A stretch of 64,000 bases of DNA from Balanoglossus misakiensis. Lineage: Eukaryota > Animalia > Hemichordata. The first letter of the stretch is position 1. The number at the start of each line of letters is the position of its first letter. The notes beneath the pieces were generated by a model. The model ran no database searches. It saw only the letters and a list, made by a program, of their open reading frames with translations, and was not told the origin of the DNA. The translations under genes were made by a program, and so were the position numbers. Shown one piece after another: positions 16,801-64,000 of the stretch. The DNA lies in NCBI GenBank assembly GCA_040954595.2, contig CM082595.2, positions 6,474,137-6,538,136 of the forward strand. The letters are read 5' to 3'.

Positions 16801-19800
16801 AATTTGTGTTTACCATTTATTCATTTTGCCGTGATTTTTACTCTCATATCCTACAAACGGGGTGGAAGTTGTGTGTGGACAAACTTTGATTCACTATATA
16901 TCCACATGTAGGATAACATAAACGGTGTCTTGTATCAAACATAATTAATGAAAAAATGGCAGTGAGAGAGAGACTTTGTCCCTTTAAGATTTTCTTTATT
17001 TCAAAAGATTTGGTTGTCAATATTATGTTCAACACATAATTTATAGAGAATTTTGAATGTTTTTATTATAGACTTTAAAAAGAAATTTCTACATTGATGA
17101 CTAACACGCACCAGTTATATAAATAGGGAATTAAAATGAAACAGCAGGGATATAGAGATTATATGGTGGATGTTAATTATAGATTATTTATGACATGTTC
17201 TGCACTGTAATACAGGAATGTGTTGTGTGTTTTTCAGATTGGCAGTGTATGGAAGCAACAACATTGATATTGAGGTCAAGTCGTACGCCCGGCTACTTTT
17301 TGAAGAGGCAAGTGAAAGAATGATTGCCTTGAGTCCCTGTTTTCAGTAAAAATTGAACCAACCCCATTGTTAACAATGGTGTGGTTGAATCCATAAACGG
17401 GAGAATGGGGTAGGGTGGGGTGAGGAAAGAGACTTTTGTGATATTTTTCCTCGGGTACTTTTTTTGCCATTGAGTTTAATGTTTCTGTGTCAAGTGGGGA
17501 CAGCCATTAGTGCATAAATAGGCTAAGTACACTCACCTTGGTTGTCAGAAATTTTAATAGCTAACAGACTTTTTACACCAGAAATAATCACTGATTTTCA
17601 TTCTAAAGATTGATGTGGAACATTAGTAAATGTTGTGATTCCGTCTCATTATCAATATCGATTCTAATCAACACCTTGTACCATTTCCATTGCTAAGCAA
17701 TCATTTCCCCTGTCATACTTTTCACAGGTTTTAAACCCATTTTACATTTTTCAAGTCTTCAGTGTTGTCCTGTGGATGGCAGAAGAGTATTATTATTATG
17801 CTACTTGTATTATTTTTATATCGACGATATCCATTTCTGTTTCTCTGTACGAGACCCGTAGGGTAAGTATATGGAGTAGGGTTAGCTCACTATTTTCAAA
17901 GCACATGGCATACAAATTGTACTTCTTGTGAAGGGCACAGTTCTTGGATATCTTTCTTGAAGATTTTACTATACTTCATGTTTGTCTGATTTGCTTGTTA
18001 ATGTATTACCATGTATGATACTGATTCAACCAATGACTGCAGAAAATGGATGAGGTATAATACAAAGTGATGTTCTGTGACAATCTCTGGTGTTTGTGGG
18101 TGTTCGTTCAATGTGTGTAATCAGAATACATTCTTCTTTTTTCAGCAAAGTATCACACTGCGAAACATGGTGGCACACAGCAGCACAGTACATGTTTGCA
18201 GAGGAAGTGAAGGTATTGTATCTTTGCTTATATTAACACTTAAATTTACACTTTTGTCCGACATGTCTCATTTCAAAAGGCCATCTGCTGTATACAACAT
18301 AGTGAGTGGCCATCTTGACTTGGCCATTAGTGTTTAAATCACTAGAGCATTAACCCTAGTGCTACTGGGTGTCATACCTGTTTAGAGTCTCAAGTCCCTT
18401 AAAATACGTAGTTGCCATTTTTTCTTCTAAAATGTATTTTGACTGTCTTGACATGGCTCTCATACGTACTTAGACACACTTGGCAGTCTGAGCCCCCTGT
18501 AAAATGTACCAAATCGCATTGGTTTGCACTGTATTGGTCTGAGGGTCTTGTATAGGCCCTACTGATTAACACGGACTTGGCAGTTTAACAGGCCTTGGAG
18601 CCAGGATTCTAGGCACCCTGGAAATCAAACCAGTTTCAACTGACTTGGCAGTGTAAGGGTTTGCACTGTATTGGTCTGAGGGTCTTGTATAGGCCCTACT
18701 GAATAACACACACTTGGCAGTCTAACAGGCCTGGGAGCCAGGAATCTAGGCACCCTGGAAATCAAACCAGTTTCAACTTACTTGGCAGCGTTAGGGTTAA
18801 ACTTGTTGGCATTCTGTTTCAGAATACGAAGTGAATGCAGAGTTTCTGGTGCCTGGTGATGTCATACTGATTCCCTCTACGGGATGTATGATGAACTGTG
18901 ATGCTGTCTTGATCAGTGGAAACTGTATTGTCAATGAGAGTATGTTGACAGGTGAGCCAAGCCAATTGTAACTCCAGCTAGTTTCCTCTGTGTTACAACA
19001 AGTAAACATTAACATCGCTTCAAAACCAGACCACTTGCCTAAAATTTACTAGATTTTTATTTATTTTTTCTTTTCCAGGTGAAAGTGTACCGATAACCAA
19101 AACCCCACTGCCCCACACTCACAGCACTTCAAGTGCAGAGTCGCCGATCTACCGACCGGAGGAACATAAACGACACACTTTGTTCTGTGGGACGCACGTG
19201 ATACAGACCAGATACTACGGAAGTGAGAAGGTCAAGGCTGTGGTTGTTAGGACAGGTGTGAAAGGATTTTGTTTCTGATTTTTTTGTATGTAGATTTTCA
19301 GAATGTGTCACTTGGAAAAAATACAGTTACATAATTTTGTATTTCCCTGTTAACTATGACCTTGTTCTGTGCTTTTCACCATATAAGGAGTAATGTGAAA
19401 GCTTTTTTCTTGCCGTATAAGGAAAACTGGATTTTGCTATGTTAGAAAATCAACTCTTCATCTTATACTAAGGGTCATTGTGATTTTTCTGCACAAGGCA
19501 ATTGACATAATTATGTTTTAATTGGCTAAGTAAAAATTGCCATTTTATTGTCATCCTAGTATAACAAAATGAACGTATTGCTAATTAGGAAAAATGGCCT
19601 ACTGTGTGGAGAAATTTACATTCTTGCATTAATCTTTCAGGATTCATGACAGCCAAGGGTGAATTGGTGAGGTCGATCTTGTTCCCCAAACCAATGGGTT
19701 TTAGATTCTACACAGATGCTATGAAGTTCATTGGTGTACTCACTGTCCTTGGTTAGTAGTCTGATATAGTGGTTTAGAAATTCTTGTGAATTTGAGAAAA

Positions 19801-22800: not shown

Positions 22801-25800
22801 TCAAGTCCCTTAGAATACGTATTTGCCACTTTTTCTTCTAAAACATATTTTGACTGTCTTGACATGGCTCTCATACGTACTTTGACACACTTGGCAGTCC
22901 GAGCCCCCTGTAAATGGTACCAAATCACACTGGTTTGCACTGTATTGGTCTGAGGGTCTTGTATAGGCCCTACTGAATAACACACACTTGGCAGTCCGAG
23001 CCCCCTGTAAATGGTACCAAATCACACTGGTTTGCACTGTATTGGTCTGAGGGTCTTGTATAGGCCCTACTGAATAACACACACTTGGCAGTCTGAGCCC
23101 CCTGTAAAATGTACCAAATCACACTGGTTTGCACTGTATTCTTCTGAGGGTCTTGTATAGGCCCTACTGAATAACACACACTTGGCAGTCCGAGCCCCCT
23201 GTAAATGGTACCAAATCACACTGGTTTGCACTGTATTGGTCTGAGGGTCTTGTATAGGCCCTACTGAATAACACACACTTGGCAGTCTGAGCCCCCTGTA
23301 AAATGTACCAGATCGCACTGGTTTGCACTGTATTCTTCTGAGGGTCTTGTATAGGCCCTACTGATTAATACGCACTTGGTAGTCTAACAGGGAGCCAAGA
23401 TTCTAAGTACTGTACTCAAGTGAAATAGGCAGCTTTGCCCTGGTTGGGTGAAACAGGTTTTTGAACCTCGAATATGTGATAAACCCCAGATTTGTGAAGT
23501 ATAATTGATCAGTAACTACCATGATAGATGATTTAACCTTTAGGGTTTTTCAGGTAATCGTGTTTTGCGACACTAGATGGGGCCTGGATATTAGATGGAT
23601 GTGTCAGTGTGCCCTGGTTTTCATGCTTATGGGCTTTTAACACATTCCTGAAAGTGCTGGGATTTCAGTCACTCCAGGGCAGACCCTGAAAGTCCTGGGA
23701 AAACATAATTTACTCCCAGATGAGAAGGTCGTGAAAAATTGATTTTCCCACTAAATATGAATGTAGCATTAGTAGTAATTGTTGACTATTTTGCAGTTCT
23801 TTTCTGTGTAGTGTATTAACTGGAATTTCTTGTTCTACTCTCTGTAGCGTGATAAAATTAAGCAATAAAACACCCCCAGCCATGGTATACCACGAGATTT
23901 TGACCAGTTCACGACATATACGCACGAGCGATAGCGAGTGCGTATATGGAGTTGAACTGGTCAAAATCGAGTGGTATACCATGGCTGGGGGTGTTTTATT
24001 GCTATTATATTATACCAGTATATTGAAACTTTGCATAAAACATTTTAAAAAGGCATTTTCTTTGACTATGATATATGACTGTGGTATATGGCTAATATAT
24101 CACGGTCACGTGTTGTGTTTCGACCAATCAAATAGCGTGATTTACACCATCAATATACTGGTATAATATAATGTCCAATATTCTGCTTATAAGCATAGCC
24201 TGTACATGCATCACGACATTTTTTATTGTAGACAATAAATAACAGTATGCAGATTCAATTTTTAACACTGATAATAGCATACCAAGAAAAATACAGTTAG
24301 AACAGTAAAAATAATTCATTTTTTTGGCATATTTTTCCACTAGGTCCCATATGAGATTGGTATCGTACGACAGTTTCCCTTCTCATCAGGGTTACAACGG
24401 ATGAGTGTGATCACTAGGACCCTGGGTGCAACCAACATGGATGTCTATGTGAAAGGAGCCCCTGAAATGGTTGCCTCTCTATCTCTGAACGAAACCAGTG
24501 AGTGTAGATTATTATATTACAGACTCCTGCTTTGTTGAAAATCCATGCTTGTATCTGTAGTCAATAGTCTTGTCTGTTACTGTTAGTATCCCTGAAGCAA
24601 ATGATCACTGATAGTATCAGTAATGTTTGTATTAAAGGGGCAAAGTCTCTCTCGCTGCCCTTTATCCATGAATTATGTTTGATACAAGACACTGTTTGTG
24701 TTATTCCACATGTGGATATATAGTGAATAAACGTTCGATAACACACAACTTCCATCCTGTTTGTAGGATATGAGGGTAAAAATCTCGCCAAAATGAATAA
24801 ATGGTAAACACCTATTATTCATTTTGGTGAGTTTTTCACTCTTGTGTCTGCAAGTGGGATGGAAGTTGTGTGTAGTCAAACATTGATTAACTATATATCC
24901 CCATGTAGAATAACATAAATGGTGTCTTGTATCAAACATAATTATTGGAAAAAGGGAAGTGAGAGAGAGACTTTGTCCCTTTAATATATGGGTAGTGCCC
25001 ACATGTGGGGTAGAATAAAAAGAAATATTTTGCCGTAATGTAAAAATTAAAAAAAAAATCTTGTTTTTTATCTTGTGATTTTTTGGTTCATTTTGAACAG
25101 TTCCTGGTGACTTCCATGAAGTTCTGCACAACTACACCAAACAGGGTTTCCGTGTGATAGCTCTGGCTTGGAGATCCATGGAAAGCAAGTTTTCCTGGCA
25201 CCAAGCACATCGCATTCCAAGGTAAAGGTTTATTGATTGAATAGTCTTCCACAGGGACTTTATTTTTGTGCTGCAGTTTTCACTGCTGTGGAGGTTCATA
25301 TGAGTACTATTTTGAAATTCCTTCATCATGTATTCAGGCTGACCTGATTGACTGATGAATTCTACAGTAAATGTACGGTCATATGTACATCCGAAAGAAA
25401 CAAGAACATTCCTCTTTCAGTTTTTTGACAGAACAAAGCAACTAATCTGCATGTGGCAATTATTTTTTCCAAAAAAATCTATCACTCAAAGATATTATGT
25501 ATGATTGTTCTTTGTGTTTGTAGAACCGATGTCGAGAGTGACCTGAATTTCCTGGGCCTGTTGATAATGCAGAATACCCTGAAGCCAGAGACGACTCCCA
25601 TCATTCACCAGTTGAAGAGAGCCAACATACGGACAGTCATGGTAACGGGTAAGTTTTGGTTACACCAGAAATCTCTCATTTATTTTTCTTTCAGATGCAA
25701 TTATTTTCCTCACAACAGATTAGTTGACTGTAAAATCAACAAAATGTGCCTGGTTTGTATTTTGTAGCTACGGTTATTGGACGTTTAACCTGAGGGGATG

Positions 25801-28800: not shown

Positions 28801-31552
28801 AAAAATAGTGTTAGAATAGAATTTTATGTGCTTTAGTCACAGATGTTGTGTTGTTATTACCAAACTTCCCCAAACCATCAGATAATGGACTTAAAGGTAT
28901 ACGGTCACCTATGCAAATATAGCGACAGTTACCATGGTAAATTGAATTCTAGCCAATCACAGATTTTTACTGGGTGGCACACACGAAAAAAGAGCGCCAC
29001 CATAGGTTCTTTAGGACGCTCAAATACGCCATTTCAGCCATACATGGGCGTATGTAAATCGGAGGTGACTGTATACCTTTAAATGCCATAATATAACATA
29101 AGGAATATTCTAAAGTTACTGAAAGCTTGGAGGAGATATTATCACTTCAGAACCATAGCTGTAAAATATGAGGAAGAATACATGATGAATGTGGAACTGT
29201 TTTGTGTTTCAGTGGGTCGCACAGAGGCGTATCCCCGCCTTGTTGCCACAAGACCACCGGGCAGTCTGGTAGCCCCACCAATTTTGTTTTCATTGATAAT
29301 TCAAGTTATGATCACCGTTTCCATCCAAGCTGGTGCCTATTTTTGTCTCTTGGCACAACCCAGCTCTTGGTAAGTAACAATCTGTTTTTCATCAGTCTGT
29401 GAAAGGGACAAAGTCTCTCTCCAGCTGCCCCCTTTCCATTAATTATGTTTGATACAAGACACTGGTCATGTTAATGTAAATGTGGATATATATAGTGAAT
29501 CAACGTTCCATCACACACAACTTCCATCCCTCTTATAGACAGGAGGGTGAAAAAACTCGCCAAAATGAATAATCGTTCTTTACCATTTATTCATTTTGGG
29601 CGAGTTTTTACTCTCATATCCTACAAACGAGATGGAAGTTGTGTGTGGTCGAATGTTGATTCACCATATGTCCACATGTAGAATAACATAAACGGCATCT
29701 TGTATCAAACATAATTAATGGAAAAAGGGCAGCGAGAGAAAGACTTTGTCCCTTCAATTGTTAACTTGTTTGTTTGTTTGTTTGTTTGTTTGCCTTTCAA
29801 TATTTTTTATTAAAGCTCCATTAGCTGTATCTTTTCGCTATATTTTCAGTATGTTTTGTGTATCTACTGCAATTTCTTGTTCAAGTTCCTGAAACATGAT
29901 GAATTGCCCACTATTCAGAACACTACCTATAAGTTTAACCCTAATGCTACTGGGTGTCATACCTGTTTAGACATGTCCCTTAAAATACATATTTGCCACT
30001 TTTTTCTTCTTAAACGTATTTTGGCTGTCGTAACATGGCTCTCATACGTACTTAGACACACTTGGCAGTCTGAGCCCCCTGTAAAATGTACCAAATCACA
30101 CTGGTTTGCACTGTATTGGTCTGAGGGTCTTGTATAGGCCCTACTGATTAACACGCACTTGGCAGCCTAACAGGCCTGGGAGCCCGGATTCTAGGCACCC
30201 TGGAAATCAAACCAGTCATACTGACTTGGCTGAAGGGTTAAAGTCAGCATTGACACTGTGCAAACCTTGTCTTCTAGTCTGGACTAGAATTCATTTGTCA
30301 ACATTTACAGTTGCAGTTACACACATACAGGCTAATCACCTGACCAATCTTCTTTCCTCATCCACAGGTTTACGCCTCTAACGCCGCACCACAATCAAGA
30401 TAAGAATATTTTATGTTTTGAGAACACGGTCGTCTTTCTAGTGTCTTCCTTTCAATATATCATATTTGCTGCAGCATTTTCGAAGGGTAAACCTTTTAGG
30501 CTTCCCATGTACACAAACGGTGAGTGAACCCCTCATTTGATTTTTCTCTCCCATGAATTGTTGTAAAACACTTTATTTTTGCGAGTTGAAATTTTCGCGA
30601 TATCGAGAGAGGCCACTGTTTCGCGAGTATTAAATTTCGTGTTCTCTTATTTCATTTACTGCATCGTTATCTTCAAAAAACATTACGCGACTTTTTATTT
30701 TCACGCTATTTTGGCTCTCACGTATTTCGCGAAAATTTATGGATTGCAAAAATAAAGTGTTTTACAGTATTACTCACGTTAGCCTAGAATAGATTTGAAT
30801 GGAATCCTGTACACACCTGAGCATGTTATCAACTGACAGTTATGAGAACTGTACCATCAGCCAGCAGTAAATTTGAAACACATCTTACAGAGAAAAACAA
30901 ATATTAATATTTTTTTCAATTTTTTTAAACTTTCAGTGCTGTTCTCAGCGTCTGTGTTTCTGCTGATCGCCTGTACAGTATGGCTGACACTGTACCCAAC
31001 ACCGCCAATAGCCAAATTTATGCAGGTATTGAATTTGTGTTAGTTTATATAATTTTCACAAAGCACGAGTGTGACAAAATGTGCATATAATAATAAACAT
31101 AGGCAGCCATGTTTTTGGGGTACACAGAAGATATTATTTCTACACTCAAAGTTCCTTGTATTTTTCTTACATATAACACATGTGTAGTAACAAGCAAACA
31201 CACATCTCTCAGTGAATACAAAACCATTTGAAAACAAAATCATGAAAATAATGTGAAAAGACATTGCCACTTTTTACAATATTGTCTTTTTACCTGTCTC
31301 TATTTTGTAGCTAACCGTCCACGACATGCCTCTCAGCTTCAGATGTGTGATTTTATCCTTTGCTGCCGGAAATTTTGTGGGATCATTCTTCATTGAGGTA
31401 AAGGAGTCCTCCCATTCATACAGTTAGTCAGAGTGTGAAGATAATTGTATCAAGCTGGTAGAGTCAATCAAACTAGCAATTTTAGGTCCTATTTGGTATA
31501 TGCATACATACCATTGGGACCTTATGGGATCGGTTGCATCTGTATGTATGTA

Positions 31553-40355: not shown

Positions 40356-40713
40356 TTAAAGGGACAAAGTCTCTCTCTCGCTGCCCTTTTTTCCATTAAT
40401 TATATTTGATACATAAAGACACCGTTTGTTATTCTACATGTGGATATATAGTGAATCAATGTTCAACCACACACAACTTCCATCCCTTTTATAGACAGGG
40501 GAGTGAAAAAACTCGCCAAAATGAATAATCGTTCTTTACCATTTATTCATTTTGGGCGAGTTTTTACTCTCATATCATACAAGTGGGATGGAAGTTGTGT
40601 GTGGTCGAACGTTGATTCACTATATATCCACATGTACATTAACATAAACGGTGTCTTGTATCAAACATAATTAATGGAAAAAGGACAGCGAGAGAGAGAC
40701 TTTGTCCCTTTAA
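40356..40713. mobile_element. Family A palindromic MITE (Kolobok-like)
   Basis: Full TIRs and TTAA on both sides. Confidence 0.88.
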
Positions 40714-41760
40714 TGGATTGGGAACCCTGGTAACACTTAATCTGTTATACCACAGGGAACATATGACTGCAGTAAAATTGGCTCTCACTGAAAGACCTGA
40801 TACACAAGACGACTAGGGTAGTAATACACAGTGTTTCTGCTGAGGTTGGACTTAAAGACTTTATCTATTATCCTATAGCAATCCTATAAGACCCACTGTG
40901 TCCTATAGGACTGCTTTAGGAAAACTGAAGCCCTATTTCTTCTTGTACTTTTATAGGATAGTTTTGTAAAAGTCCAGTGAACTAAGTTCTAAACTGTGAA
41001 ACTATACCATACCACTGTCTCTCTGCAGACTGACTTACATGTTTATGAAGCAGCCCACTTGACACTCGACATGATCAAAAATGTTTTAGTCGACCTCATG
41101 AAGTGATACTCCAATTGTACTCTTTCTGGAGTCTTTGTACGTGCTCTAACAGAGAGAATGAGAATTTATGATCATGTGTATGGTTTAGTTGCCCCGTAGT
41201 GCCTCTTAAACTGTTTATCTTAAGTTTACCTGCCTAGTTACATGTACTCCAGTCTGTTAGATGTTACAATTCTACTTGTTAGTGAGTTAAACAAGTGCTT
41301 GAGAGTAGGGCAATTCTGTCACGAATTACTCATGGATTACTCTGTGACAATAATTTGATGAATGATGTCTTTTTTTTTAATTATCAACTGCAGTTTTCAA
41401 CCAGTCTGAACTGTGTGATCCTTGCATGTTTCAGTTACACCGGTTCTATACAGAACCGTTGTAATTCTTATCATTTTCATGGAAGAAAGTCAGACCATAT
41501 TTGGTATTGTGCCGATGAAACTTTATCATTTTATAATCTTTACAATTGATATCGTCATCAAGGCCAGTAATGTCCCCACTTGGATGCATTGCTACGTTTT
41601 AGTGTCTTGTTGGTAATGGTTAGAAGCAATGTAACCTTCATGGTTGAAAGTTATAATGTCAGATTATGTTTACTAGGCTTGTAACGTGATGCAAAACCCA
41701 TCCTTGAAAGTTGAAATGCCAATCGTACAAGCAGTGGATTTTCTTGCAATTTTTAATGTA

Positions 41761-51601: not shown

Positions 51602-52817
51602 GTGAGTGACTGATCAGGTTGAGTAATCACAATTATGAGCAGTGCAACTTGTACAATGCAAGCAGTCAGCTTCAGGTTAATGTGTATGTATACATGTATG
51701 TATTCATGGCAAATTCAGCCAGTGGGCAAATGAGGTCTATGGCACTTTCTTAGCTTGCAAACATGGTTGGCCTGAAAATTGGACTGAAGTCAGTGACTGT
51801 GTGTGGGTGTATTATAGTACCATAGTCCGTTATGTGTGGGAGGGAACCACTTTCGTTTGTCCATTCAATCATTTCTTGCATTGTTGTCTCCATGTACAGA
51901 GACTTATAATCACTGTAGCTGTAAATGTTACTGATAATAGAGTAACTTTTATTATGTAAAGAGGCTGACGTGTGTAAAATTCAATTAGGCACCGAAAAAC
52001 TGAATCCTGACCTGGATCTTGATCCTCCCACGCCTTTCAATAATAATGATATTTATTTATGATACCAGCATGTTTTGTTGGTGAGAAATGAAACTAAATT
52101 CAAAAGATAAGCCAGTATGTCCATGTCCTATTTTGTCGAACAAGATCTTGATCATCATAACAAGGTATTTCTTGGTCACTTTATTGTACAATTTCAGTAC
52201 AATTTCAAAGTAAACACTCACAAACCACTAGAAGTGCTTGATTCACACAGGTTCAAAAGTACCCATGGTTTTGCATAATGAGTTTGATGTGTCTATTAAA
52301 TGTGTATTATTGTAACCCATATCAAATATAAGCTATTCAAATGGTGTGGCCTTTGTGACCCTTATAATTTAAGTTATAAGCAAAACCAATATTATATTTT
52401 ACAACAAAGTGTAGGTTTGTAACACTAGCTGTTCAACATGTCAAGGGTTTCTGAGTACATCGTGGTAATTAACTTCTACCGGTAATGGCCGCAATAAAAA
52501 ACATTCATGTTTTATTGCATACAAAGTCCTATATTTCTTCCCTTTTGACAAGAAAGATGGTGAGGGGTCTCTGTGTTGTATATCAGTGAATTTTAGGTCA
52601 CAATTAAATAATTGGCACCACAAAGCTCCAATAACTCCAACTTTGGCCTACTTTCTCAGGAATTTTGTTTTGGATATTTTACAATTTGTTTATTGTGGTT
52701 TTGATATCTCATCTACAATTTCTTGTTTCTACTCCCAAAATGCAATTGCTATTTTTGACAACCCTTTATACTCCACTGGTCCGGATGATGACTATTTTGA
52801 CCTTTGACCTCTTGCAG

Positions 52818-55800
52818 ATAGTGGTCCAGGGGTGGCATATCACCGGACTCAATCTGTCAGGACTGTGCTCAATGAAGGGGAAGATGATGAAATTGTAAGT
52901 TTGTTGGAGAAGACAGCAAGCTGTTTTGATTATCTGCTATCAAAATCATTTACTAATTAATTCAATTAATTGATTTATTTTTTGATTAATTGATTGATTG
53001 ATTAAAGGGACAAAGTCTCTCTCTCTCGCTGCCCTTTTTTCCATTAATTATGTTTGATACAAGACACTGTTTATGTTAATGTACATGTGGATATATAGTG
53101 AATCAATGATCAACCACACAAAACTTCCATCCAACTTGTATGATATGAGAGTAAAAACACACCCAAAATGAATAAATGGTAAAGAACGATTATTCATTTT
53201 GGCGAGTTTTTTCACTCTCCTGTCTATAAGAGGGATGGAAGTTGTGTGTGGTTGAAAGTTCACTATGTATCCACAAGTAGAATAACAAACGGTGTCTTGT
53301 ATCAAATATAATTAATGGAAAAAAGGGCAGCGAGAGAGAGACTTTGTCCCTTTAATTGATTGATTGATTAAGTAATCCAATTATTTTTATATAATTATTT
53401 TTACTGTAGGAATGTATTGGCTACAAGAGGAGTATTTGCCGCACTGTGCTGTGTTATGTGGGAATGGTATTGACTGTTGGAGTGTTGTGGTTGGTCTTCT
53501 ACTGGCGTAGTGATTGGAAGCTGAAATGTATGGCCTACCAGGTGTGCTTAGATGATGCCACCTGGGTGCTCATCAAGGTGAACTTGCATATTAAATGTAT
53601 TTACATCTGTTGAAGTAATGAAATTTGTTATGGTGTATTGTGAGTATGGGTTACCAGGCAGAGGTCATTACCCTGGGGGAGGGGAGGGGCTTCTCTGATC
53701 CAGTTTTAACCGTAAATAATCCTAGAAGTGGGTAATAATTTCTGGTTGTCCTGCGGCACAGATAAGCAATATACCCCTGTGATATATAACTATGAGCCTG
53801 GCAATTGTCATAGTTTCCTTAAGATCAGGAATTTGTATTCATCTTTTTCTGAAAAAGTGGATTTTTACATGGTATTTTTTCAGGATGGGTACACACAACA
53901 TCATGTTTCGAAAGTCCAAAAAGTGGACGTTAGGAAAGAAAGGTAAAGATGGTTACATTTTTAAAAGTTTTTCACAAGTTTTATTGTAATGTCAGTCTCT
54001 AACAAGGGGCAAGGAAAACAAGTGGACAGTGGCTGAATAATTTGCTGACCCAAATCCTCCACCCCCGAGAAATCAAATGGTTCTCCCCTTGGATGTCACC
54101 ACAACCTGCCACAGAATTAAATATGTCTGTATATTCATTTCGTGTTGACAAGAAACTGAATCCTAGAATAAACAGTTCATCTATTCATTATTTTCATTTC
54201 ATAACAGTGGACTTACAAATGATGAAACCCGAACCATCTTGAGAAGAGATGTATTGGTGGACGGACAGCTTTTGCGATTTTTCAGATACCAAAAATTAAA
54301 GTACATCTGGGACCCAACAGATGGGCTGTTTAGGAAGTTAAGGTAAGTTCCAGAAAATTCACCCTCCAATGCAGACATAAACTGTCAATTAAAGGGGAAA
54401 TCCGGCCTAGCTGATTTCTACATAATTTGGCAGCTTTGAGGTCACTCTTTCAGAATAAAACATGTTCGCCATGTATAAGTTGCGTGAATTTTTACAAAAT
54501 CGAGGGAAAGTTGGCAGAATTTCCAATATGGCGTTTACTGTAATTTGAATCATGGGAAAAAAAGCGCCAGGACCAACTTCCGCCCACCTTGGTGTGGGTG
54601 ATACCATTTTCCGATTGGTGTCACTGGGCGACAGACTAGACGTTTTTGCATAGTTATTGTTTGTACTTTGCATCAGTTGATAAACAATCAGGAGCAAAGT
54701 CGATAATTTGTCATCTTTTGAAAGTTTTAATGAGCTATAACCCATGAAAAATATGAAAATACACTTCTAGAATGTAGTTGAATGGATGATAAAACAAGCT
54801 GAATTATCACACTCTAAATGGGTTTATTTTTTAACTGGCAAATGTATAATATGATGACGTTTCCTTTTTTGCAGGGGATTGGATGAAGGCATGAAAAGCA
54901 TAGATTTTTTTGAAAAGTTTCAAGGTTTCTCAAAAGAAGAACAACAAAGAAGGTAAAAAGAACATATCTATCTTTGTATATTCCTGTGAACTTTTTGAAA
55001 ATAAATTGTGTTGATTTGATTTAACCTTATAAAGAAAATTATCTTACAGCAACTGTTGTACAACAAAATTATGGACAAGACCAAAAAAGGGCAAATCGGT
55101 GATACTTGCTGTAATGATTTTGTATGCTTATTTTCTTTTATCACAGACAATTTTTATTTGGTCAAAATGTCATAACTGTCAGGGTGCGAAGTTATTTTGT
55201 TTTACTTGTTCAAGAGGTAAGTTAAGTAATAATTTGCTATCCACCGTAGGTATGCATGCACACATTTGAATTTCAGGCAAAATCTCAGTAGATACATGGA
55301 TACAACTTTACTCTCCTCCAAGTCACAGATTGGTAAATTTCTTATACTGGTCAAACAAACAAATAGATTCACTTATACAGAACCAGTCTGCCCTAAACTC
55401 TGTTCCATCATTTGATAACCTAAGGAAAGAACTTTCAACTTTTGATACAAAAGTGCTATGAATTGTAGTCAATGCTTTCCGCTGTGACTGTGTTGGGTGA
55501 AATTATGATTTTCACGGCCATATGTAATATAAAGTTTATTTCTTATACATGTAATTCTGTTTAAAGTACATGTACACTCGATAGAGATAATGTTGTTGTA
55601 TTTGTTTCCAGGTGTTGAATCCTTTTTACGTGTTTCAACTGTTTAGCGTCTTGTTGTGGTTTTCGGATGAATACTATTACTATGCTGCCTGCATTGTTAT
55701 CATGTCGGCCGTCTCCATTGCCATATCGTTGATATCAACAAGAAAGGTAAACAGAGATGATGAAGATGTCCACTTTGTTTTTCATATGAACTAACACTAA

Positions 55801-58800
55801 CCTCGAAAAACGACCATTTTATGCGGTTATTATGCATACGCAAACAACTACAAGCAGAGCAGAACAGTTCTGCCATATATGGTCATGGGATTTCCATATA
55901 TGGTCAGGTCGCCTTGAGAAATAATCATATTCAGAGGAGGGGTTTTAACAATTCCATATCTGGTATTAAGGTCATATAACATGACCATGCAGAGACATTA
56001 AATAACTATTCAAATGATATGCAAATTACTCAGCCTCACTCTGATCCTATCTCTCGGGGCGACATCATGTTTTGTTCTGATTGGCGCAAGACGCATCGCA
56101 GCGAACATTCCCACACTAATACCTCAGCACTAACAGAGCTTTGCTTGTGCTTTTGTTTCTGTTCTTGTCCCCTACCCAGACTCTAAATCCATTTTATGTT
56201 TTTCCAGTGTTCAGTGTTTGTGTCTGGTTTGCCGCCGAACACTGTAAAACGGGTTATTTTCACAGGCAATAAATTTTCGCGAAATAACAAGAGCCAAAAA
56301 AAACGTGTAAAAATAAAGTTGCGTAAAATGTTTTTCGGAGATAACGATACAGTTTATAAAATACGAGAACGCGAAAATTAATCCTCGCAAAACAGTTACC
56401 TCTCTTGATATCGCGAAGATTTCCTGTCGCGAAAATAACCCGTTGTACAGTATGCTTCATTCGCTACATGCATACTTATAATGTCTGCTTTTTCTATTGC
56501 AATCTCCGTAGTGTTTTCCCTCAGGGTAAGTAGCATCAGCTTGGCATTGCATCATCCTCGCCCTCAGCCATTTCATCTAAGCATTTGCCTTCACTGCTGG
56601 CCGCACTGCATAATTTCATCATCTTTAAGAGATTTGCTGCATGATTTTATCAGAGTAAGTGTCATTTCATATAAATTTGAACCTGGCATAATTTAGAGAT
56701 GCATTGTCATCATACAGGTTTTAAAGATATCATAGCTTCATGGAGGCAGCCATGATGTTTAAAGATGCATTGTCTCCGTGAAAGTTTAATGATATATCTT
56801 TATTGGCACATGTCAGTTATGTACTAATTTTCAAGATACATCATAGTCATAGAGGTTTAATGATGTGAAAAGTTATAATCGAAGCAGTCATGATGTTTAA
56901 ACGTTGATATCTCTGTTGTTTTTGAAAGCAAAATCTTTACACATGGCCATGTCTATGTCTAAAATGGGCAACTTTTAAATTGTCTGGTTTTCTTTCTATT
57001 TTATTTTATGACTTAATAACAGCAAAGTGTCATGTTACGTGACATGGTTGCATCATCTCATACAGTGGCCGTCAGCAGAGGCACTGATGGTGAGTTTGTC
57101 TCTTGTCTGATTTCACACAATTAACACACAGTTTAATTGGATAAGTCTCTGAGGGTTCATGTGAAATTTAGGCCCATATAATTTACCAGTATTATAATAA
57201 TAAATAATAAATGTCAAGAGTGTTTCATTGTAATCAGCATTTTATCATTAAATTAGGATTATCAGTGGCTAATACTGGTAAATTATAATAATTATAATCA
57301 GTGGCTAATAATATGTAAATTATAATAATTATAATTTACCAGTATTAGCCTCTGATACTCCTAATTTATAGATAAAATGCTGATCACAGTGAACAACTTT
57401 TGACAACAATTCTGCTCTCTTGGAAAATACCATTTTTGACATTAAAACTCATTGAAAATCCCAGAATTTTGAATTGCATGCATAAAGCACATGAACCCTG
57501 AGTTCAGTCAAGGTCAGCTGGAGTTATTTTGTTGTTGTTGATTTTTGTCGGCTAGAACCTGTAATGGTTGACGAAAAGGAGTTGGTGCCTGGTGATGTCT
57601 TGTTAATTCCACCCAATGGGTGCCCTATGACCTGTGATGCAGTCTTGCTGATGGGGAACTGTATTGTCAATGAGAGCATGTTGACAGGTGAGGAGAGAAA
57701 ATAGCCGTTTGGAAATATGTTCTATAGAATTCTACAGCATTCTATAGATATCTGTAGAATTCTATAGCCCATAGAATTTGTATGGAAGTTTATAGAATTT
57801 CTATGAATGTCTGTAGATTTCTATGTAGTTTTGAACCCTATGTCCTTGGAAAAAATATTCTATAGAATTCTATAGCATTCCATAGATATCCATAGAACTC
57901 TATAGCCCATAGAATTTGTATGGAAGTTTATAGAATTTCTATGAATGTCTGTAGATTTCTATGTAGTTTTGAACCGTATGTCTATTGAATTTCATAGAAT
58001 TTTAAAAATGTAATTCTTTACTATCAATCATGTGATCTGGCCATGTGACCTATGGCGTTGTCATTTCCTGATGACAGGCAAGCAATAATTTCTCCCATTC
58101 CAGGCGAATCTGTCCCCATCACCAAAACCCCGCTTCCCAGTTCCGGAGACGAAGCTGATGTCATCTACTGCCCGGAAGAACACAAACGACACACTCTGTT
58201 CTGTGGCACGCAGGTGATACAGACCAGACACTATGGAAGTGAGACGGTCAAAGCTGTGGTCGTCAGAACAGGTGAGAATAATAAAACATCACTAGTACGG
58301 TATATCATGTTTGTGTTAATTTTTCATGAAAAAGGGATTTTGTGCTAAATATATGAAGATAGACACTGGCTTCATGTTTAACGCATATAATCCACTTTTT
58401 GCATACAGTGTGGAAAATTTTCTTTTCACTGGAAATTATTTTTGCTGAAAACTTTTGAATATTACAATTTCATGTGTACAGGAAAAGAGAATTTTAACTT
58501 TGATTTTATATATAATAGCAGAGAAATGAGTCCAGTGAAAATAGTGAAAATAAATTTCTAGTGATGATCAACTATTCTACATTATTATGCCTTGCCCCCT
58601 CACCTAGTCTTTTGCAGTGGTGACTACTTTACTTAAAATTGCATAGGAGATTTTGTGGATTTATAAAAAATATGATATAATGTGATGTCACCATTTCTGT
58701 GCCAGGTTTTAGCACTGCCAAGGGTACACTGGTGAGAGCTATACTGTACCCTAAACCGATGGACATTAAACTCTACAGGGATGCCTTGAAATTCATTTCA

Positions 58801-61800
58801 GTCATGTTTGGAATCGGTAAGTTTATACCCTAAGTAATTAACCTATCTACCTGTCCATCAAATATACACTATGCACCATTATGATGAAGGCATTAATAGC
58901 TTACTGCTGTCTCTCTCATCCCCTGAACTGCTGACAATTGAGGTAGCCCTGAATGACTTGCAGATTCAGAGAGAAACAGACATTACCCTAATGATTGGGC
59001 CAAGAAAAGCACATACCGATAGTTCAGATTACATACTTTCCAAAATAAGGAGTGTTGTTTACTTAGTATTGAGTGATTTGACAGATAAATAATATTGAGA
59101 AATTTGTGTAGCAATGTTTACCACTTGGCAGGTTTTCACTTCAGACTGGCATATTTTGAAAATTCCTCTAATCACAGACTGTTGATTTTTTCTCCTTCAC
59201 AGCTGCTGTTGGTTTTATTTACACAATAATTGTCCTGGCACTGCATGAAGTAAGTGCTAATTCATGTGTTCTACCTTTTGGTGATTGGGTGGTGTTAAAA
59301 GAATGTGGTTGCTTGACTTGCAACAACTCCTGGAAGCGTCTTTTTAACTCTGGAAAATCATGCAAAACTCTTCATTTTATATTATTATTAAACTTTATTT
59401 AAGGAAATGAAAAATCCCATATTTACAAAGATAATAAATAAATACACATAATTTAGAATAAAAAAGTTATTACGTAAAAAAGACAATAATACCATTTAAA
59501 AACTATAATTACAAGTAAACTAAACCTCTGTAAAGTTTAAAATGTGATGAGTAAAATATTGCATCTGAGTTGAGGACTGCTAAAATGAGTCTGTTACAGC
59601 TATTTCTCAGTCGCTCAAAGAATTTATACATCAAGTTTCGCCTAAGCGCCCCAAAGGTTGGAATTGTGTGAGAAACAAACATTGTACAGTGTTTTTTGAG
59701 TGCAGTGTGTGAATTTGATGAATGAACCCCTGGCTGGGCAACTCTCTGATGTTAAAAGCCCTTCTCAACAGTGGGTCAAATCTTTTGTTTCCAATAAACA
59801 GTTACATGCTAACACAAAGGATTTCTTATTTGCCTCGTCCATTTTCTGCCCTGGGATTGAGAAAATGGCCTTTAACTATCTGCTAATTCCCATAGGCAAC
59901 AGTCAAAGACATCATGTTGAAGTCACTTGATATCATCACCATTGCTGTACCACCAGCCCTGCCGGCCGCATTGACCATCGGTATTGTCTATGCACAAAGC
60001 AGACTGAAGAAACAAAACATCTATTGCATTAGTCCTAGCCGTATTAATTTGTGTGGGACACTGGATGTGGTCTGCTTTGATAAAGTGAGTATTGATCGCC
60101 ATAGAATCTGTCTTCTTTTTCCTTCTTTTGCAATAAGTGTAGGAGGGCAAATCTTCCTGAATGGTCCCTATCAACCCTTACAAACATGTTCTATAAAGCT
60201 CGATAGAATTTAATAGAAAAAGGGTCCAACACTACAAGAGATATACATAGAAATTCTCTAGGCTGTATAATTCGATAGACGTTAATTAATATAATTCTTT
60301 TGTAAGGGAATTGTACTCCGCACTGCATTGTACCTTCACATTAATTGTACCTAAAATCACATTAATTGTACCTTCACATTAATTGTGTTGACTGTAAAAT
60401 TTTCATTACAGACAGGTACTCTCACAGAAGATGGTCTGGATCTGATGGGTGTTGTTCCATCAGACAATGCCAGGTAACTTATGCATGTGATGTTATGAAT
60501 CTCTGTAATAGTTTGTGATGCTAATGAAAGAAAGGCCTTGTCATGAGTTTTACCACTTGTGCTATTAATGAGAACGCCGATCTGATCTGTGTTTGTTTTT
60601 CTGACAGATTTGATAGAATGGTGACACACGTCGAACATCTGCCAGTCAACAACTTATTAGTTGCCATGACAACATGCCACTCTTTGACGAGAATTCAAGG
60701 AGAACTGAACGGAGACCCTCTTGATATGAAGATGTTTGATGCAACTAAATGGGTAGGTCAGGTCGCATTCTGAAGTGTCCAATATGCTGCCTCTACCAAA
60801 GTCACATGACTATCATGTGATATACACAGTGAGCATATACCAGGCATTGATTTGTTAAGGAAATCAGAATGGATATCATAGATATCCTGGTATAGTCCAC
60901 TGCAGTCAATCTGGACCATTTAGCAGCCAAAATGAAAATCATGTGACTTCCACATGCTAGTCATCAGCCAATCAGGTAGGGGTTTCCTGCTTGCCTACCA
61001 GCCAGGTTTAAATCAGTTATGTGACAAGCGTGATGAATCAGTCAATCTTTCTTTGATCAAATATACAGATCAGCATGCTTATGAAGCATTTGCTTATAAT
61101 TATTTTTCAATTGTATTGTTTTTTTTCAGACACTGGAGGAGCCCACTCAGACAGACACCACACATTTTGACATGGCAGTGCCAACCATTGTGAAAGCACC
61201 AGGAGCCACACAGAACTACAATGAAACAATGGCAAACAGCAGTACACAACAGGTAAGGACAGTATGTGTATTAACACAACACTACACAGTGGGTAATAAC
61301 ATTACAGTCAAACCCCTGTTAGTGGCCACCCCTATATAGCCAGCCATCACCTCTATATAGTGGTCACTTTGTTACAGTCCCCGTGCAATTCACATGTGTG
61401 TATAAATATATAAAGGTCACCTCTCTATATAAAGACCAGTTCAGGAAAGTCCCTTGACTGGCTACTATAGAGAGGTTTGACTGTATGTGTATTGGTATAG
61501 TACATGACAGATAATAATTGTGTGATTGACAGTTAGCAGTATACAATGGGTGGTAATGAAGATTTTTATGGCTATTTTGCAGTTGGGAACAGAGGTCGGC
61601 ATCGTGCGGCAGTTTCCATTTTCATCGGGTTTGCAGAGGATGAGCGTGATTACTCAAACGCTTGGATCAGATCACATGGATGTGTACAGCAAGGGTGCTC
61701 CCGAAAAGATGGTGTCTCTTTGTTCTACTAAGTCAAGTGAGTCATCATCTATTAAAAATACTATTAAAAGTAATACAGAATCATAAGAAAAAGGATAAAA

Positions 61801-63457
61801 ATTACATACAGTCAAACCCCTGTTAGTGGCCACCCCTATATAGTGGTCACCTCTATATAGTGGCCACTTTGTTACAGTCCCTGTGCAATTCACATGTGTA
61901 TTAATTAACCTCTACATGTATATAAAAGTCACCTCTCTATAAAGGCCAGTTCAGGAAAGTCCCTTGACTGGCTACTATAGACAGGTTTGACTGTATAACA
62001 TGTATTGTACGATCAAGTAGAGATACATGTATGCAATTTAATAAAAAGTACAGATAAATATCCATATGTAGATTATTTGTCGGTATATACATTTAAAATT
62101 AATCCAAAATTTTGGTCATGCCATCAATAATGTAACTTTTTCATACATCTTGCCTATCCTGTCTTTTCCATGATTTTTATAGTTCCGGAAGATTTCCAGG
62201 AGGTGCTCATGAGTTACACCAAGCAAGGTTTCCGGGTCTTGGCCGTAGCATGGAAAGCGATGGATCCATCTGTACAGTGGAATGAGGCATTGAAAATATC
62301 CAGGTACTCATGAAATTAAATTTTCTATCATTATTGTTATTAAGGGACATTAGCTGTAACTTTTGACTATTTTTTATTACTTGTGTTCTGTGTACTAACT
62401 CCAGTTTCCTATGCTTACCCGCACATAATGCTCAAGTGTCCAGTATTCTGATTGTCAACGAAGCCTGCACATGTGAAATGATCATTGTTATTGTTGACAA
62501 TTGAATTCTAGTCCGTACTAGAATACAAACTTTCAACAATAACAATGCAGATTGTACTCATATAGGGCATGTTAATGAACAAAATACTGGGCATTTCATC
62601 AGGGATTCCAACCAGAAACTGTAGTTGATACATAGAACAAACAAAATAAGAAAATGACCAAAAGATACAGCTAATAGATCTTTAATTTAGCCTACGTGGG
62701 TGAACAGATTATTCAAGTCAGCAGAGATACATTCAATGCTCTCTCAATTTTTTTCTGGTCTGTAGAGGAGACGTTGAGAGTGACCTTCACTTCCTGGGAT
62801 TCTTGGTGATGCAGAATAAACTGAAACCGGAGACCACGCCCGTCATCAAAGAACTCACGGCTGCCTCCATCAGAATCATCATGGTTACAGGTAAAACGAG
62901 AAATTGGTGTTTTGAATTGGTGGTGTTCTGTATGAGGAGTTTCTTAACTTTGATGTGCGAGTTCATGCTTTCTGTACATGTGATGTGGTTGTTCTTTGCA
63001 ATTACTTCACAAATTTTCTTGGCCAAGCTCCTTATATATGTGCAAGGTATTACACTCATATACATGTATATAGTCCATGTATACATGTAGTTCAATGCAC
63101 TGGCCTCGTCCATGCATTGCTGTATTTTGTGAATAACCCTAAAAATCATAGCAGGTACTCACTGCTGACCAGGGGCATTGTATGCAGTAAATACATTTAT
63201 TTGTATGAAGTCAAGTCAATATTTTTTTAAATATTGAATATTTTACGAGAAATAAGGCTAATTCTGCTGCTCTGTTTTTGACAGGAGATAACATGTTGAC
63301 AGCTGTCAATGTGGCCAGGAAGTGTTGCATACTGCAACCACATCACAGGGTCATCATGGTGGAGGCACATCCTCCCGATGGAGTCAAGGTGGAAAACATC
63401 ACCTGGACTTTTGCGGAGACGGACTTGCCGCCGACCCCGGACAGTCCTAACCCAGAG
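52818..63457 (+). CDS. ATP13A3: P5B-type P-ATPase (ATP13A2/ATP13A3-like), paralogue 2; 3' end lies beyond the window and the start codon is in an upstream exon
   Basis: Exons in consistent phase: 52818-52894, 53410-53577, 53884-53942, 54208-54342, 54875-54952, 55147-55216, 55612-55746, 57023-57089, 57556-57687, 58104-58271, 58706-58816, 59203-59249, 59896-60084, 60412-60473, 60608-60752, 61130-61252, 61583-61736, 62183-62303, 62766-62890, 63285-63457. Motifs: [47 protein letters not shown]. Most exon lengths match paralogue 1 (168, 70, 135, 67, 111, 47, 189, 154, 121, 125). Confidence 0.93.
53002..53355. mobile_element. Family A palindromic MITE (Kolobok-like) inserted in an (ATTG)n tract
   Basis: ttgattga TTAA AGGGACAAAG ... 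CTTTGTCCCT TTAA ttgattgatt. Confidence 0.88.
56180..56525 (+). pseudogene. Tandem duplicate of the 135-nt TM1-TM2 exon of paralogue 2, interrupted by a MITE (pseudo-exon or former mutually exclusive exon)
   Basis: ccag|ACT CTA AAT CCA TTT TAT... (56180-56239) plus TAT GCT...CTC AGG|gtaagt (56451-56525) gives 135 nt: [45 protein letters not shown], colinear with [45 protein letters not shown] at 55612-55746. The inserted MITE introduces an in-frame TAA. Confidence 0.88.
56240..56452 (+). mobile_element. Family B MITE (variant TIR) inserted in the duplicated exon
   Basis: CTGTAAAACGGGTTATTTTC (56242) ... GAAAATAACCCGTTGTACAG (56450), a 19/20 TIR match, flanked by CA and TA. Confidence 0.87.
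57720..57985. repeat. 138-bp tandem duplication built from ctatagaa-like submotifs
   Basis: ttctatagaattcta(c/t)agcatt...ttttgaacc repeats at a 138-bp offset (57720/57858). Confidence 0.85.
61303..61485. mobile_element. Family C MITE
   Basis: TA CAGTCAAACC ... GGTTTGACTG TA. Confidence 0.85.
61807..61995. mobile_element. Family C MITE
   Basis: TA CAGTCAAACC ... GGTTTGACTG TA; very similar to the 61303 copy. Confidence 0.85.
62340..62685. mobile_element. Older diverged TTAA element; related copies at ~32926-33241 and ~48035-48487
   Basis: TTAAGGGACATTAGCTGTAACTTTT ... AAAAGATACAGCTAATAGATCTTTAA, with internal arms attgttattgttgacaa / ttcaacaataacaat. Confidence 0.55.
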
Positions 63458-64000
63458 GTTGGTTCTCAGTGACACAAAATTGAAACAATACACGTCCTGT
63501 TTCACAAGTCTAGCGCCCTCACACAGGCATCATGAAATTAAACTCAAAGCGAGGCCAATGGGGAAAAGTTGACCAATGACATCAAGGGTGTTTAAATTCA
63601 AAGTCCAAATTCATTATGGGTGCATAGGGCGCTGGACTTATGAAAAGGGTGTGTACTATAGTTTAGACTCTCACAGCCCACGGTTCGCTACAAGGCTCTT
63701 CACTGATGCGCCCTCAACCATAATAGCAAAGGAGAAGCCCCACATGGTGTTGTGTAGCGAACTCATGCAATCAGACTATAAGCCTGCATGGACGGTGAGA
63801 TGGGCTGTGAGAGAGTCTAGAGAATGCTGGACTTATGAAAATCGTGTGTACTGTAGTTCATCCAAGCTCGTTCCCTCATAGTGTTGCATTAGAAATTGCA
63901 ATGAAAGCACAACAACCCAGAGTTGTCTCTGAATAAAGATAATTTTCTAACCAAAAATTAGCAGTGGACACACATACTTTTGAAAGCAAAATTAACCTCA

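What the first reader, a model, noticed from the sequence alone, without database searches (positions are those of the whole stretch)
56180..56525. Hidden tandem duplicate of the substrate-entry exon (TM1-TM2) of P5B ATPase paralogue 2, with altered polyamine-site residues and split by a MITE
Seen in sequence: removing the family B MITE (56240-56450) leaves exactly 135 nt between an intact cag acceptor and an intact gtaagt donor. Length and phase (0/0) are the same as the functional exon at 55612-55746. It translates without stops as [45 protein letters not shown]. Established knowledge: in human ATP13A2 structures, the W-x-x-D-x-Y segment at the luminal end of TM1 lines the spermine-binding channel. 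In this copy WFSDEYYYY becomes WFAAEYASF (acidic Asp lost, Tyr cluster reduced) and the conserved FQ becomes FP. Inference: substantial DNA divergence with frame, length and hydrophobic pattern preserved suggests the copy was once a selected, mutually exclusive alternative exon that switched substrate selectivity, and was recently knocked out (or is polymorphic) by MITE insertion. The MITE adds an in-frame TAA. Its own GT/AG sites would not restore the frame (available donors are phase 1, acceptor phase 0).
Basis: partly seen in the sequence, partly recalled or inferred. Interest (0 to 1): 0.85.

Follow-up and report, generated by a model that had tools for sequence, protein, structure and literature searches.

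The report
Transposon-broken alternative exon in polyamine pump
An acorn-worm polyamine pump gene carries a second, old copy of its substrate-entry exon, which database gene models of a related acorn worm swap in as an alternative version lacking a key acidic residue, likely tuning what or how strongly the pump binds; in this species a small transposon has split that copy and it is likely a decaying, unused exon.

Summary
In detail: 56180-56525 is a 135-nt duplicate of exon A (55612-55746, TM1-TM2 of a P5B ATPase), split by a 209-nt TA-target MITE that adds an in-frame stop. The orthologous Ptychodera flava gene has 8 RefSeq isoform models, and 2 (X2, X5) swap exactly this exon for one sharing the motif CVWFAAEY. 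The two B exons group together, and independent duplications are rejected (AU p=0.006). Synonymous sites between A and B are saturated (pS 0.92, pN 0.24), so B was long under selection. The shared change is Ala at human ATP13A2 D254, a residue that contacts the polyamine; none of 83 distinct family segments has it. The Gln-to-Pro change and most of the Tyr loss occur only in this species and look like decay. A likely second allele has two frameshifting indels in B, and no empty MITE site was seen in the one sample. No RNA was available, so splicing here and any change in substrate are untested. Verdict: an old mutually exclusive exon, live in P. flava models, likely dead here.

The parts
55147..55216 (+). 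upstream shared exon of P5B ATPase paralogue 2 (phase-0 donor at 55217)
   Evidence: tblastn to P. flava orthologue and junction fit
55612..55746 (+). exon A, intact TM1-TM2 exon (W251, D254, Y256 equivalents kept)
   Evidence: 40/45 aa identical to P. flava exon A; PDB alignment to ATP13A2 237-280; no variant seen in laid contigs
56160..56179 (+). acceptor of exon B (pyrimidine tract + cag)
   Evidence: scores above 25 of 47 automatically called window acceptors
56180..56239 (+). exon B, 5' half (TM1, ends in the WFAAE motif)
   Evidence: a second contig version has two indels here
56240..56241 (+). left target-site copy, reads CA (inferred from TA)
   Evidence: TA flanks of other family copies and right flank TA at 56451-52
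56242..56450 (.). MITE, 209 nt, CTGT...ACAG ends, 21-nt inverted arms; brings in-frame TAA at 56270-56272
   Evidence: hundreds of genome pieces 90-99% alike
56451..56525 (+). exon B, 3' half (TM2)
   Evidence: mostly not covered by laid contigs (56470-56535)
56526..56531 (+). donor of exon B (gtaagt)
   Evidence: scores above 39 of 47 automatically called window donors
57023..57089 (+). downstream shared exon (phase-0 acceptor at 57022)
17728..17862 (+). single copy of the same exon in paralogue 1 (control; Glu at D254)

Best explanation
The region is a tandem duplicate of the TM1-TM2 exon of an acorn-worm P5B polyamine pump that Ptychodera flava gene models use in place of exon A, that likely once tuned polyamine capture, and that in this species is split by a MITE with an in-frame stop and is likely dead and decaying. 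Steps: (1) Shown: the duplicate exists, its P. flava counterpart swaps 1:1 with exon A in 2 of 8 isoform models, and the two B exons share ancestry. (2) Shown: A and B diverged under purifying selection (silent sites saturated). (3) Inferred: isoform B keeps the essential W251 and Y256 and the TM4/TM6 aspartates but loses the entry-side acid D254, so it would still pump, with weaker or altered grip on the outer amine of long polyamines; a more hydrophobic cytosolic end of TM2 may also alter coupling. (4) Shown: a TA-target MITE sits in the D254 loop and adds a stop. (5) Inferred: after, or around, the insertion (about 4-5% divergence ago) B drifted, picking up changes at near-invariant sites on one allele and frameshifts on the other; any transcript that picks B would be a nonsense-mediated decay target, so this species makes only isoform A.
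For: P. flava X2/X5 differ from the other six isoforms by exactly these 45 residues; none of the 8 has both or neither. The window gene is the orthologue (SH-aLRT 99, with Glandiceps 100). B+B clade has UFBoot 93, and independent duplications are rejected at AU p=0.006. A vs B: pS 0.92, pN 0.24, Fisher p=3e-12. Ala at D254 is in both B exons, in 0 of 83 distinct family segments and in 0 of 145 placed representatives. D254 contacts a terminal amine and W251/Y256 mutants lose activity (passages). Window-only changes hit Q244 (81/83 Gln), Y257 (70/83), Y259 (82/83) and R279; profile scores are A 115-132, P. flava B 63, window B 33. A second contig version carries a 2-nt and a 1-nt insertion that shift the frame through W251. 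About 10 of 209 MITE positions differ from the majority of laid family pieces; 5% drift would give about 5 aa changes, near the excess branch length of window B over P. flava B (0.34 vs 0.21).
Against: P. flava evidence is protein models only: I saw neither its DNA nor its reads. The exon tree rests on 45 residues and two long branches may attract; raw identity of window B to P. flava B (27/45) is no higher than to exon A (26/45), and a crossed pairing was only just retained (AU p=0.051). P. flava B is itself fast-evolving (0.21 vs 0.03-0.09 for A), so relaxation may predate the MITE. The variant contig is one record in one run at about twice the depth of the window-type record, and reaches only 22 nt into the MITE; it could be a second locus. 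The MITE divergence is a rough figure from truncated tables. D254 is non-acidic in 14 of 145 representatives, so losing it may matter little. D254 is not among the mutants named in the passage read, and no paper holding 'D254A' was found.
Confidence: 0.75

Rival explanations
1. Exon B is still spliced in here, MITE included, and now acts as a regulated poison exon that lowers pump output in the cells that used to choose isoform B.
For: Both splice sites score like real ones (donor above 39 of 47, acceptor above 25 of 47; the donor beats exon A's). Inclusion gives a stop at codon 31, far upstream of many later introns.
Against: At 5% drift the AG and GT survive by chance 81% of the time. The second version has three substitutions in the acceptor tract. 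There is no sign of selection on the sites.
Confidence: 0.12
2. Exon B never made a useful pump: it is an old, loosely constrained or dominant-off isoform (regulation by making an inactive protein), so its loss here was nearly neutral.
For: P. flava B has five states never seen in 83 family segments and a profile score about half that of A exons. B differs between species at 18/45 sites vs 5/45 for A (p=0.003). It was lost in this lineage.
Against: P. flava B keeps W251, Y256, Q244, Y259 and R279, and its private changes are mostly aliphatic swaps. Saturated silent sites with an open frame show long selection on the protein.
Confidence: 0.2
3. The two species duplicated the exon independently, or the window copy is a neutral pseudo-exon unrelated to the P. 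flava alternative.
For: Raw identities among A and B exons are flat (26-28 of 45).
Against: Shared V15, A18, A19, V40 and V41, with A19 and V41 absent from 83 family segments; AU rejection at p=0.006; pN far below pS.
Confidence: 0.05
4. The MITE is spliced out as a mini-intron or is polymorphic, so a working isoform B still exists in this species.
For: The MITE ends in a phase-0 AG. Only one individual was examined.
Against: No splice combination restores all 45 codons; the MITE's sites score near the bottom of real sites. No contig joins 56239 to 56451. Both versions seen carry further lesions.
Confidence: 0.05

Closest known systems
Ptychodera flava ATP13A3-like gene, RefSeq isoforms X1-X8 (XP_070560593-600)
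   Same: Orthologous gene; the same 45-residue exon is swapped in X2 and X5 for a B version with CVWFAAEY.
   Different: Its exon B is open and keeps Q244, Y257, Y259; here B holds a MITE and further lesions. It is an automatic annotation; I found no paper on it.
Homologous mutually exclusive exons from tandem exon duplication (PMC7954323, abstract and outline read; PMC9741552, passages read)
   Same: Same length and phase, same fold segment, differences clustered at a ligand site; P-type ATPase precedent in the PMCA family.
   Different: The term ATP13 does not occur in the main text of PMC9741552. Here the event lies in a membrane-embedded cargo entry site, seems limited to ptychoderid-like acorn worms, and has been lost in one lineage.
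Human ATP13A2 / ATP13A3 (P5B polyamine-transporting ATPases)
   Same: Exon A aligns without gaps to ATP13A2 237-280. The PPALP motif and D463 are in the window gene; D960/F963/D967 equivalents are in the P. flava orthologue.
   Different: No swap of this exon was seen among the listed isoforms of other invertebrate clusters examined; human isoforms were not examined. Substrate of the acorn-worm gene is untested.
TA-target MITE (Tc1/mariner type; superfamily label recalled, not tested)
   Same: Short non-coding element, terminal inverted repeats, TA flanks, high copy number.
   Different: No autonomous partner was sought; this copy belongs to a subfamily only 74-79% like the six others in the window.

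Membership tests
Homologous mutually exclusive exon pair | Neighbouring exons of equal length and phase with sequence homology | tested here: met
   135 nt, 0/0, 26/45 aa
Homologous mutually exclusive exon pair | Transcripts carry one or the other, never both or neither | tested here: inconclusive
   True for 8 of 8 P. flava protein models (6 A, 2 B); no reads seen; no RNA holder listed for this species
Homologous mutually exclusive exon pair | Both exons maintained by selection | tested here: met
   Historically: pS 0.92, pN 0.24, shared ancestry with P. flava B. Not at present in this species.
Homologous mutually exclusive exon pair | Both exons are currently open and usable | tested here: not met
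   MITE with stop at 56270; no full rescue splice; indels in a second version
Homologous mutually exclusive exon pair | A mechanism enforcing exclusivity (steric, RNA pairing, NMD) | tested here: inconclusive
   Intron between A and B is 433 nt and double inclusion would be in frame; no convincing docking repeat; no relative's DNA for comparison
P5B ATPase | TM4 PP(A/V)LP motif with D463, DKTGT phosphorylation site, TM1-2 W251/D254/Y256 | tested here: met
   (exon A form); exon B lacks D254
P5B ATPase | Polyamine-stimulated ATPase and transport | not testable with these tools
   needs assay
MITE | Short, non-coding, terminal inverted repeats, target-site duplication, many copies | tested here: met
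   209 nt, 21-nt arms, TA flank with left copy CA, 7 copies in window, hundreds of laid genome pieces
MITE | Autonomous transposase partner fixing the superfamily | not tested
   no genome held
Poison exon | Regulated inclusion leading to nonsense-mediated decay | not testable with these tools
   stop and strong splice sites present; no RNA

The most novel reading that the evidence does not exclude
Ptychoderid acorn worms switch the cargo preference of a P5B pump by splicing: isoform B, lacking the entry aspartate D254 but keeping the deeper site, would handle a different polyamine or work at a different luminal pH. In this species the MITE has turned that switch into a poison exon that shuts the gene down in B-choosing cells.
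Probability: 0.15. Interest if true: 0.75.

Novelty: new member of a known kind. Interest (0 to 1): 0.5.

Why it matters
What sets substrate preference among P5B pumps (ATP13A2-5) is still open. P. flava X4 versus X5 is a natural pair that differs only in TM1-TM2, including loss of a polyamine-contacting aspartate that none of the family segments examined replaces by Ala, so it gives a direct test. The window also records a lineage-specific loss of an old alternative isoform through a single MITE insertion, with decay visible on what are likely both alleles. The general phenomenon (duplicated exons tuning a ligand site) is well known.

Tried and rejected
No whole genome is held. No RNA holder was listed: this is no evidence on expression. 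Contigs do not cover 56470-56535: no evidence either way on the 3' half. The three-row alignment of exon A and the two B halves misplaced the 3' half and was not used. A region search with P. flava exon B found only A-type proteins, 3 hits among 353 candidates; B isoforms hide inside 90% clusters, so this is weak. The 50%-representative search gave no B-type exon among 145 placed of 146 new hits (150 listed of 1100); its two-copy hits were duplicated gene models. Isoform lists of 10 clusters (89 listed members; sea urchin, sea star, amphioxus, abalone, coral) showed no within-gene swap of this exon, nor did the multi-member hemichordate and amphioxus clusters checked; the Glandiceps orthologue has a single A-type model, and no Saccoglossus orthologue of this paralogue came up among 120 listed hits. 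Absence from annotation is not absence from DNA. Inverted repeats around the exons gave only the MITE arms and 12-15-nt matches. dS could not be computed (saturated), and no P. flava DNA was reachable for B-vs-B dN/dS. About 6-8 of the 47 automatic junction calls look misplaced and were left in. The gene tree is the quick version and used the first 850 residues of 35 chosen rows. No structure was predicted, since the fold and contacts are known from solved homologues. Literature searches found no report: 0 papers; 0; listings only. Two look-ups of earlier scan findings were empty. Supplements of the structure papers were not read and may hold D254 mutant data.

Full report
Observation. Exon A (55612-55746) and the candidate exon B (56180-56525) both sit between ag and gt in phase 0/0. 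Leaving out 56240-56450 gives 135 nt with an open frame, 26/45 residues and 82/135 bases identical to A. The two halves score 75 and 63 against A, while 200 base shuffles of the same intron reach at most 34 and 32. The insert has 21-nt inverted arms and six relatives in the window at 74-79% identity, with TA flanks where their ends are intact. The element proper is 56242-56450; its left target-site copy reads CA, inferred to be a mutated TA. Read through, it gives a stop at 56270. Paralogue 1 has a single copy of the exon.

What the gene is. Exon A aligns without gaps to human ATP13A2 residues 237-280, which fixes the numbering: exon positions 9, 16, 19, 21 and 24 are Q244, W251, D254, Y256 and Y259. 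The closest named protein is a Ptychodera flava ATP13A3-like protein. In a quick ML tree of 35 chosen rows the window's second gene pairs with that P. flava gene (SH-aLRT 99; about 80% identity) and both with a Glandiceps talaboti gene (100); the window's first gene pairs with the neighbouring P. flava paralogue (adjacent accession numbers). The window is therefore likely from an acorn worm closer to Ptychodera than to Glandiceps.

The key result. The P. flava gene has 8 RefSeq isoform models. Six carry an A-type exon (40/45 identical to window A). Two, X2 and X5, replace exactly these 45 residues with a different version containing CVWFAAEY, the motif of window exon B; none has both or neither. 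These are protein models: I saw no P. flava DNA or reads, and that such variants normally rest on transcript alignments is recalled knowledge.

One origin. Raw identity does not settle it (window B to P. flava B 27/45, to window A 26/45). The B exons share V15, A18, A19, V40 and V41, of which A19 and V41 occur in 0 of 83 distinct family segments (108 rows kept of 120 after dropping those that did not fit without gaps). They group with UFBoot 93, and independent duplications are rejected (AU p=0.006). A duplication after the split from Glandiceps fits best (0.96), one before it is not excluded (0.09), and a crossed pairing is only just retained (0.051). With 45 columns and two long branches this is good but not final. 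Between window A and B, pS is 0.92 and pN 0.24 (p=3e-12): an old duplication held by selection on the protein.

Which changes are old. In ATP13A2 structures D254 helps make the luminal entry acidic and contacts a terminal amine; W251 and Y256 line or gate the site, and their mutants lose spermine-stimulated activity; Q244 and Y259 lie at a possible exit branch (passages of PMC10082790, PMC8564547 and bioRxiv 10.1101/2021.05.28.446245, whose numbering is 5 lower). P. flava B keeps W251, Y256, Q244, Y257 and Y259 and the adjacent Glu, and loses D254. Its TM4 and TM6 aspartates are intact. Position 254 is D 93, E 14, G 5, N 5 in 117 full-length homologues and D 100, E 31, other 14 in 145 placed representatives, never Ala. 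So the old B signature is loss of the entry acid plus a more hydrophobic cytosolic end of TM2. The Pro at Q244, the loss of Y257 and Y259, and Leu at R279 occur only in the window, at sites that are 81/83, 70/83, 82/83 and 54/83 (most others Lys) conserved. Profile scores fall from 115-132 (A exons) to 63 (P. flava B) to 33 (window B).

State in this species. Only DNA contigs of one sample were listed. No variant was seen in exon A in either well-covered run. One X2 contig over 56049-56261 has 10 substitutions and 4 gaps, including a 2-nt and a 1-nt insertion in the 5' half of exon B that shift the frame through W251. Its divergence matches other allele pairs nearby (for example 18 differences in 175 nt and 13 in 541), and it runs 22 nt into the MITE, short of the tool's 31-nt bridging rule. 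It is likely the second allele, though it is one record, at twice the depth of the window-type record, and could be another locus. No contig joins the two exon halves without the MITE. About 10 of 209 MITE positions differ from the majority of laid family pieces (truncated tables, so rough). Drift of 5% would give about 5 amino-acid changes (2-9), close to the excess of window B over P. flava B in branch length (0.34 vs 0.21). Whether relaxation began before the insertion cannot be told; P. flava B also evolves faster than the A exons.

Could B still be used? None of the 10 open GT/GC-AG combinations restores 45 codons, and the MITE's own sites rank near the bottom of 47 automatically called window junctions, a few of which are miscalled. 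B's own acceptor and donor are as strong as real ones (above 25 and 39 of 47), which leaves room for a poison-exon role, but intact dinucleotides are expected 81% of the time at this age. How exclusivity was enforced is unknown: the intervening intron is 433 nt, double inclusion would keep the frame, and no convincing pairing was found.

Breadth. No swap of this exon was seen in 89 listed members of 10 other invertebrate clusters or in the hemichordate and amphioxus clusters. The Glandiceps orthologue has one A-type model. These are annotations, not genomes.

Comparison and novelty. It works like the known homologous mutually exclusive exons that keep a fold and alter a ligand site (PMC7954323, abstract; PMC9741552, passages, with a PMCA precedent). 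It met that definition historically and in P. flava models, and fails it today in this species. Searches found no paper on such an exon in a P5B pump; the library lacks most subscription papers, and supplements were not read. Passages of PMC5837089 and PMC8233418 gave family background only. Verdict: new member of a known kind; confidence 0.75 in the overall account and about even odds for the substrate-tuning step; interest 0.5, because the P. flava isoform pair makes the role of D254 directly testable.

Noticed in passing
P0032, P0041, P0048, P0052, P0058, P0090, P0091, P0109, P0115 (TM1-TM2): A whole hemichordate and echinoderm P5B paralogue clade has W-I-x-G-Y at the entry loop, lacking both acidic residues and one residue longer: a second, gene-level remodelling of the same site.
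   Followed up: partly
P. flava isoforms X1, X2, X3, X8 (A domain, after the exon following TM2): An optional 33-residue insert that ends in a near copy of the preceding residues, suggesting another internal duplication; not sought in the window (57090-57556).
   Followed up: no
window 10960-53360: A second palindromic MITE-like family of about 360 bp with a dozen or so copies (e.g. 16622-16998, 24630-24986, 40356-40714, 53001-53356).
   Followed up: no
window 54800-57200: Contigs of the one sample differ from the window by about 2-10% in introns, including two amino-acid-changing differences at 54905 and 54945 in an upstream exon.
   Followed up: no
window 10900-32030 and 52817-63460: Two tandem P5B paralogues whose orthologues have adjacent accession numbers in both P. 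flava and Glandiceps; paralogue 1 has Glu at D254.
   Followed up: partly
window 18350-18800, 22760-23405, 29934-30242: A shared intronic tandem repeat family in paralogue 1.
   Followed up: no
P0025 (sturgeon, flagged unverified): A gene model with this exon's peptide repeated identically in tandem, probably an assembly artefact.
   Followed up: no
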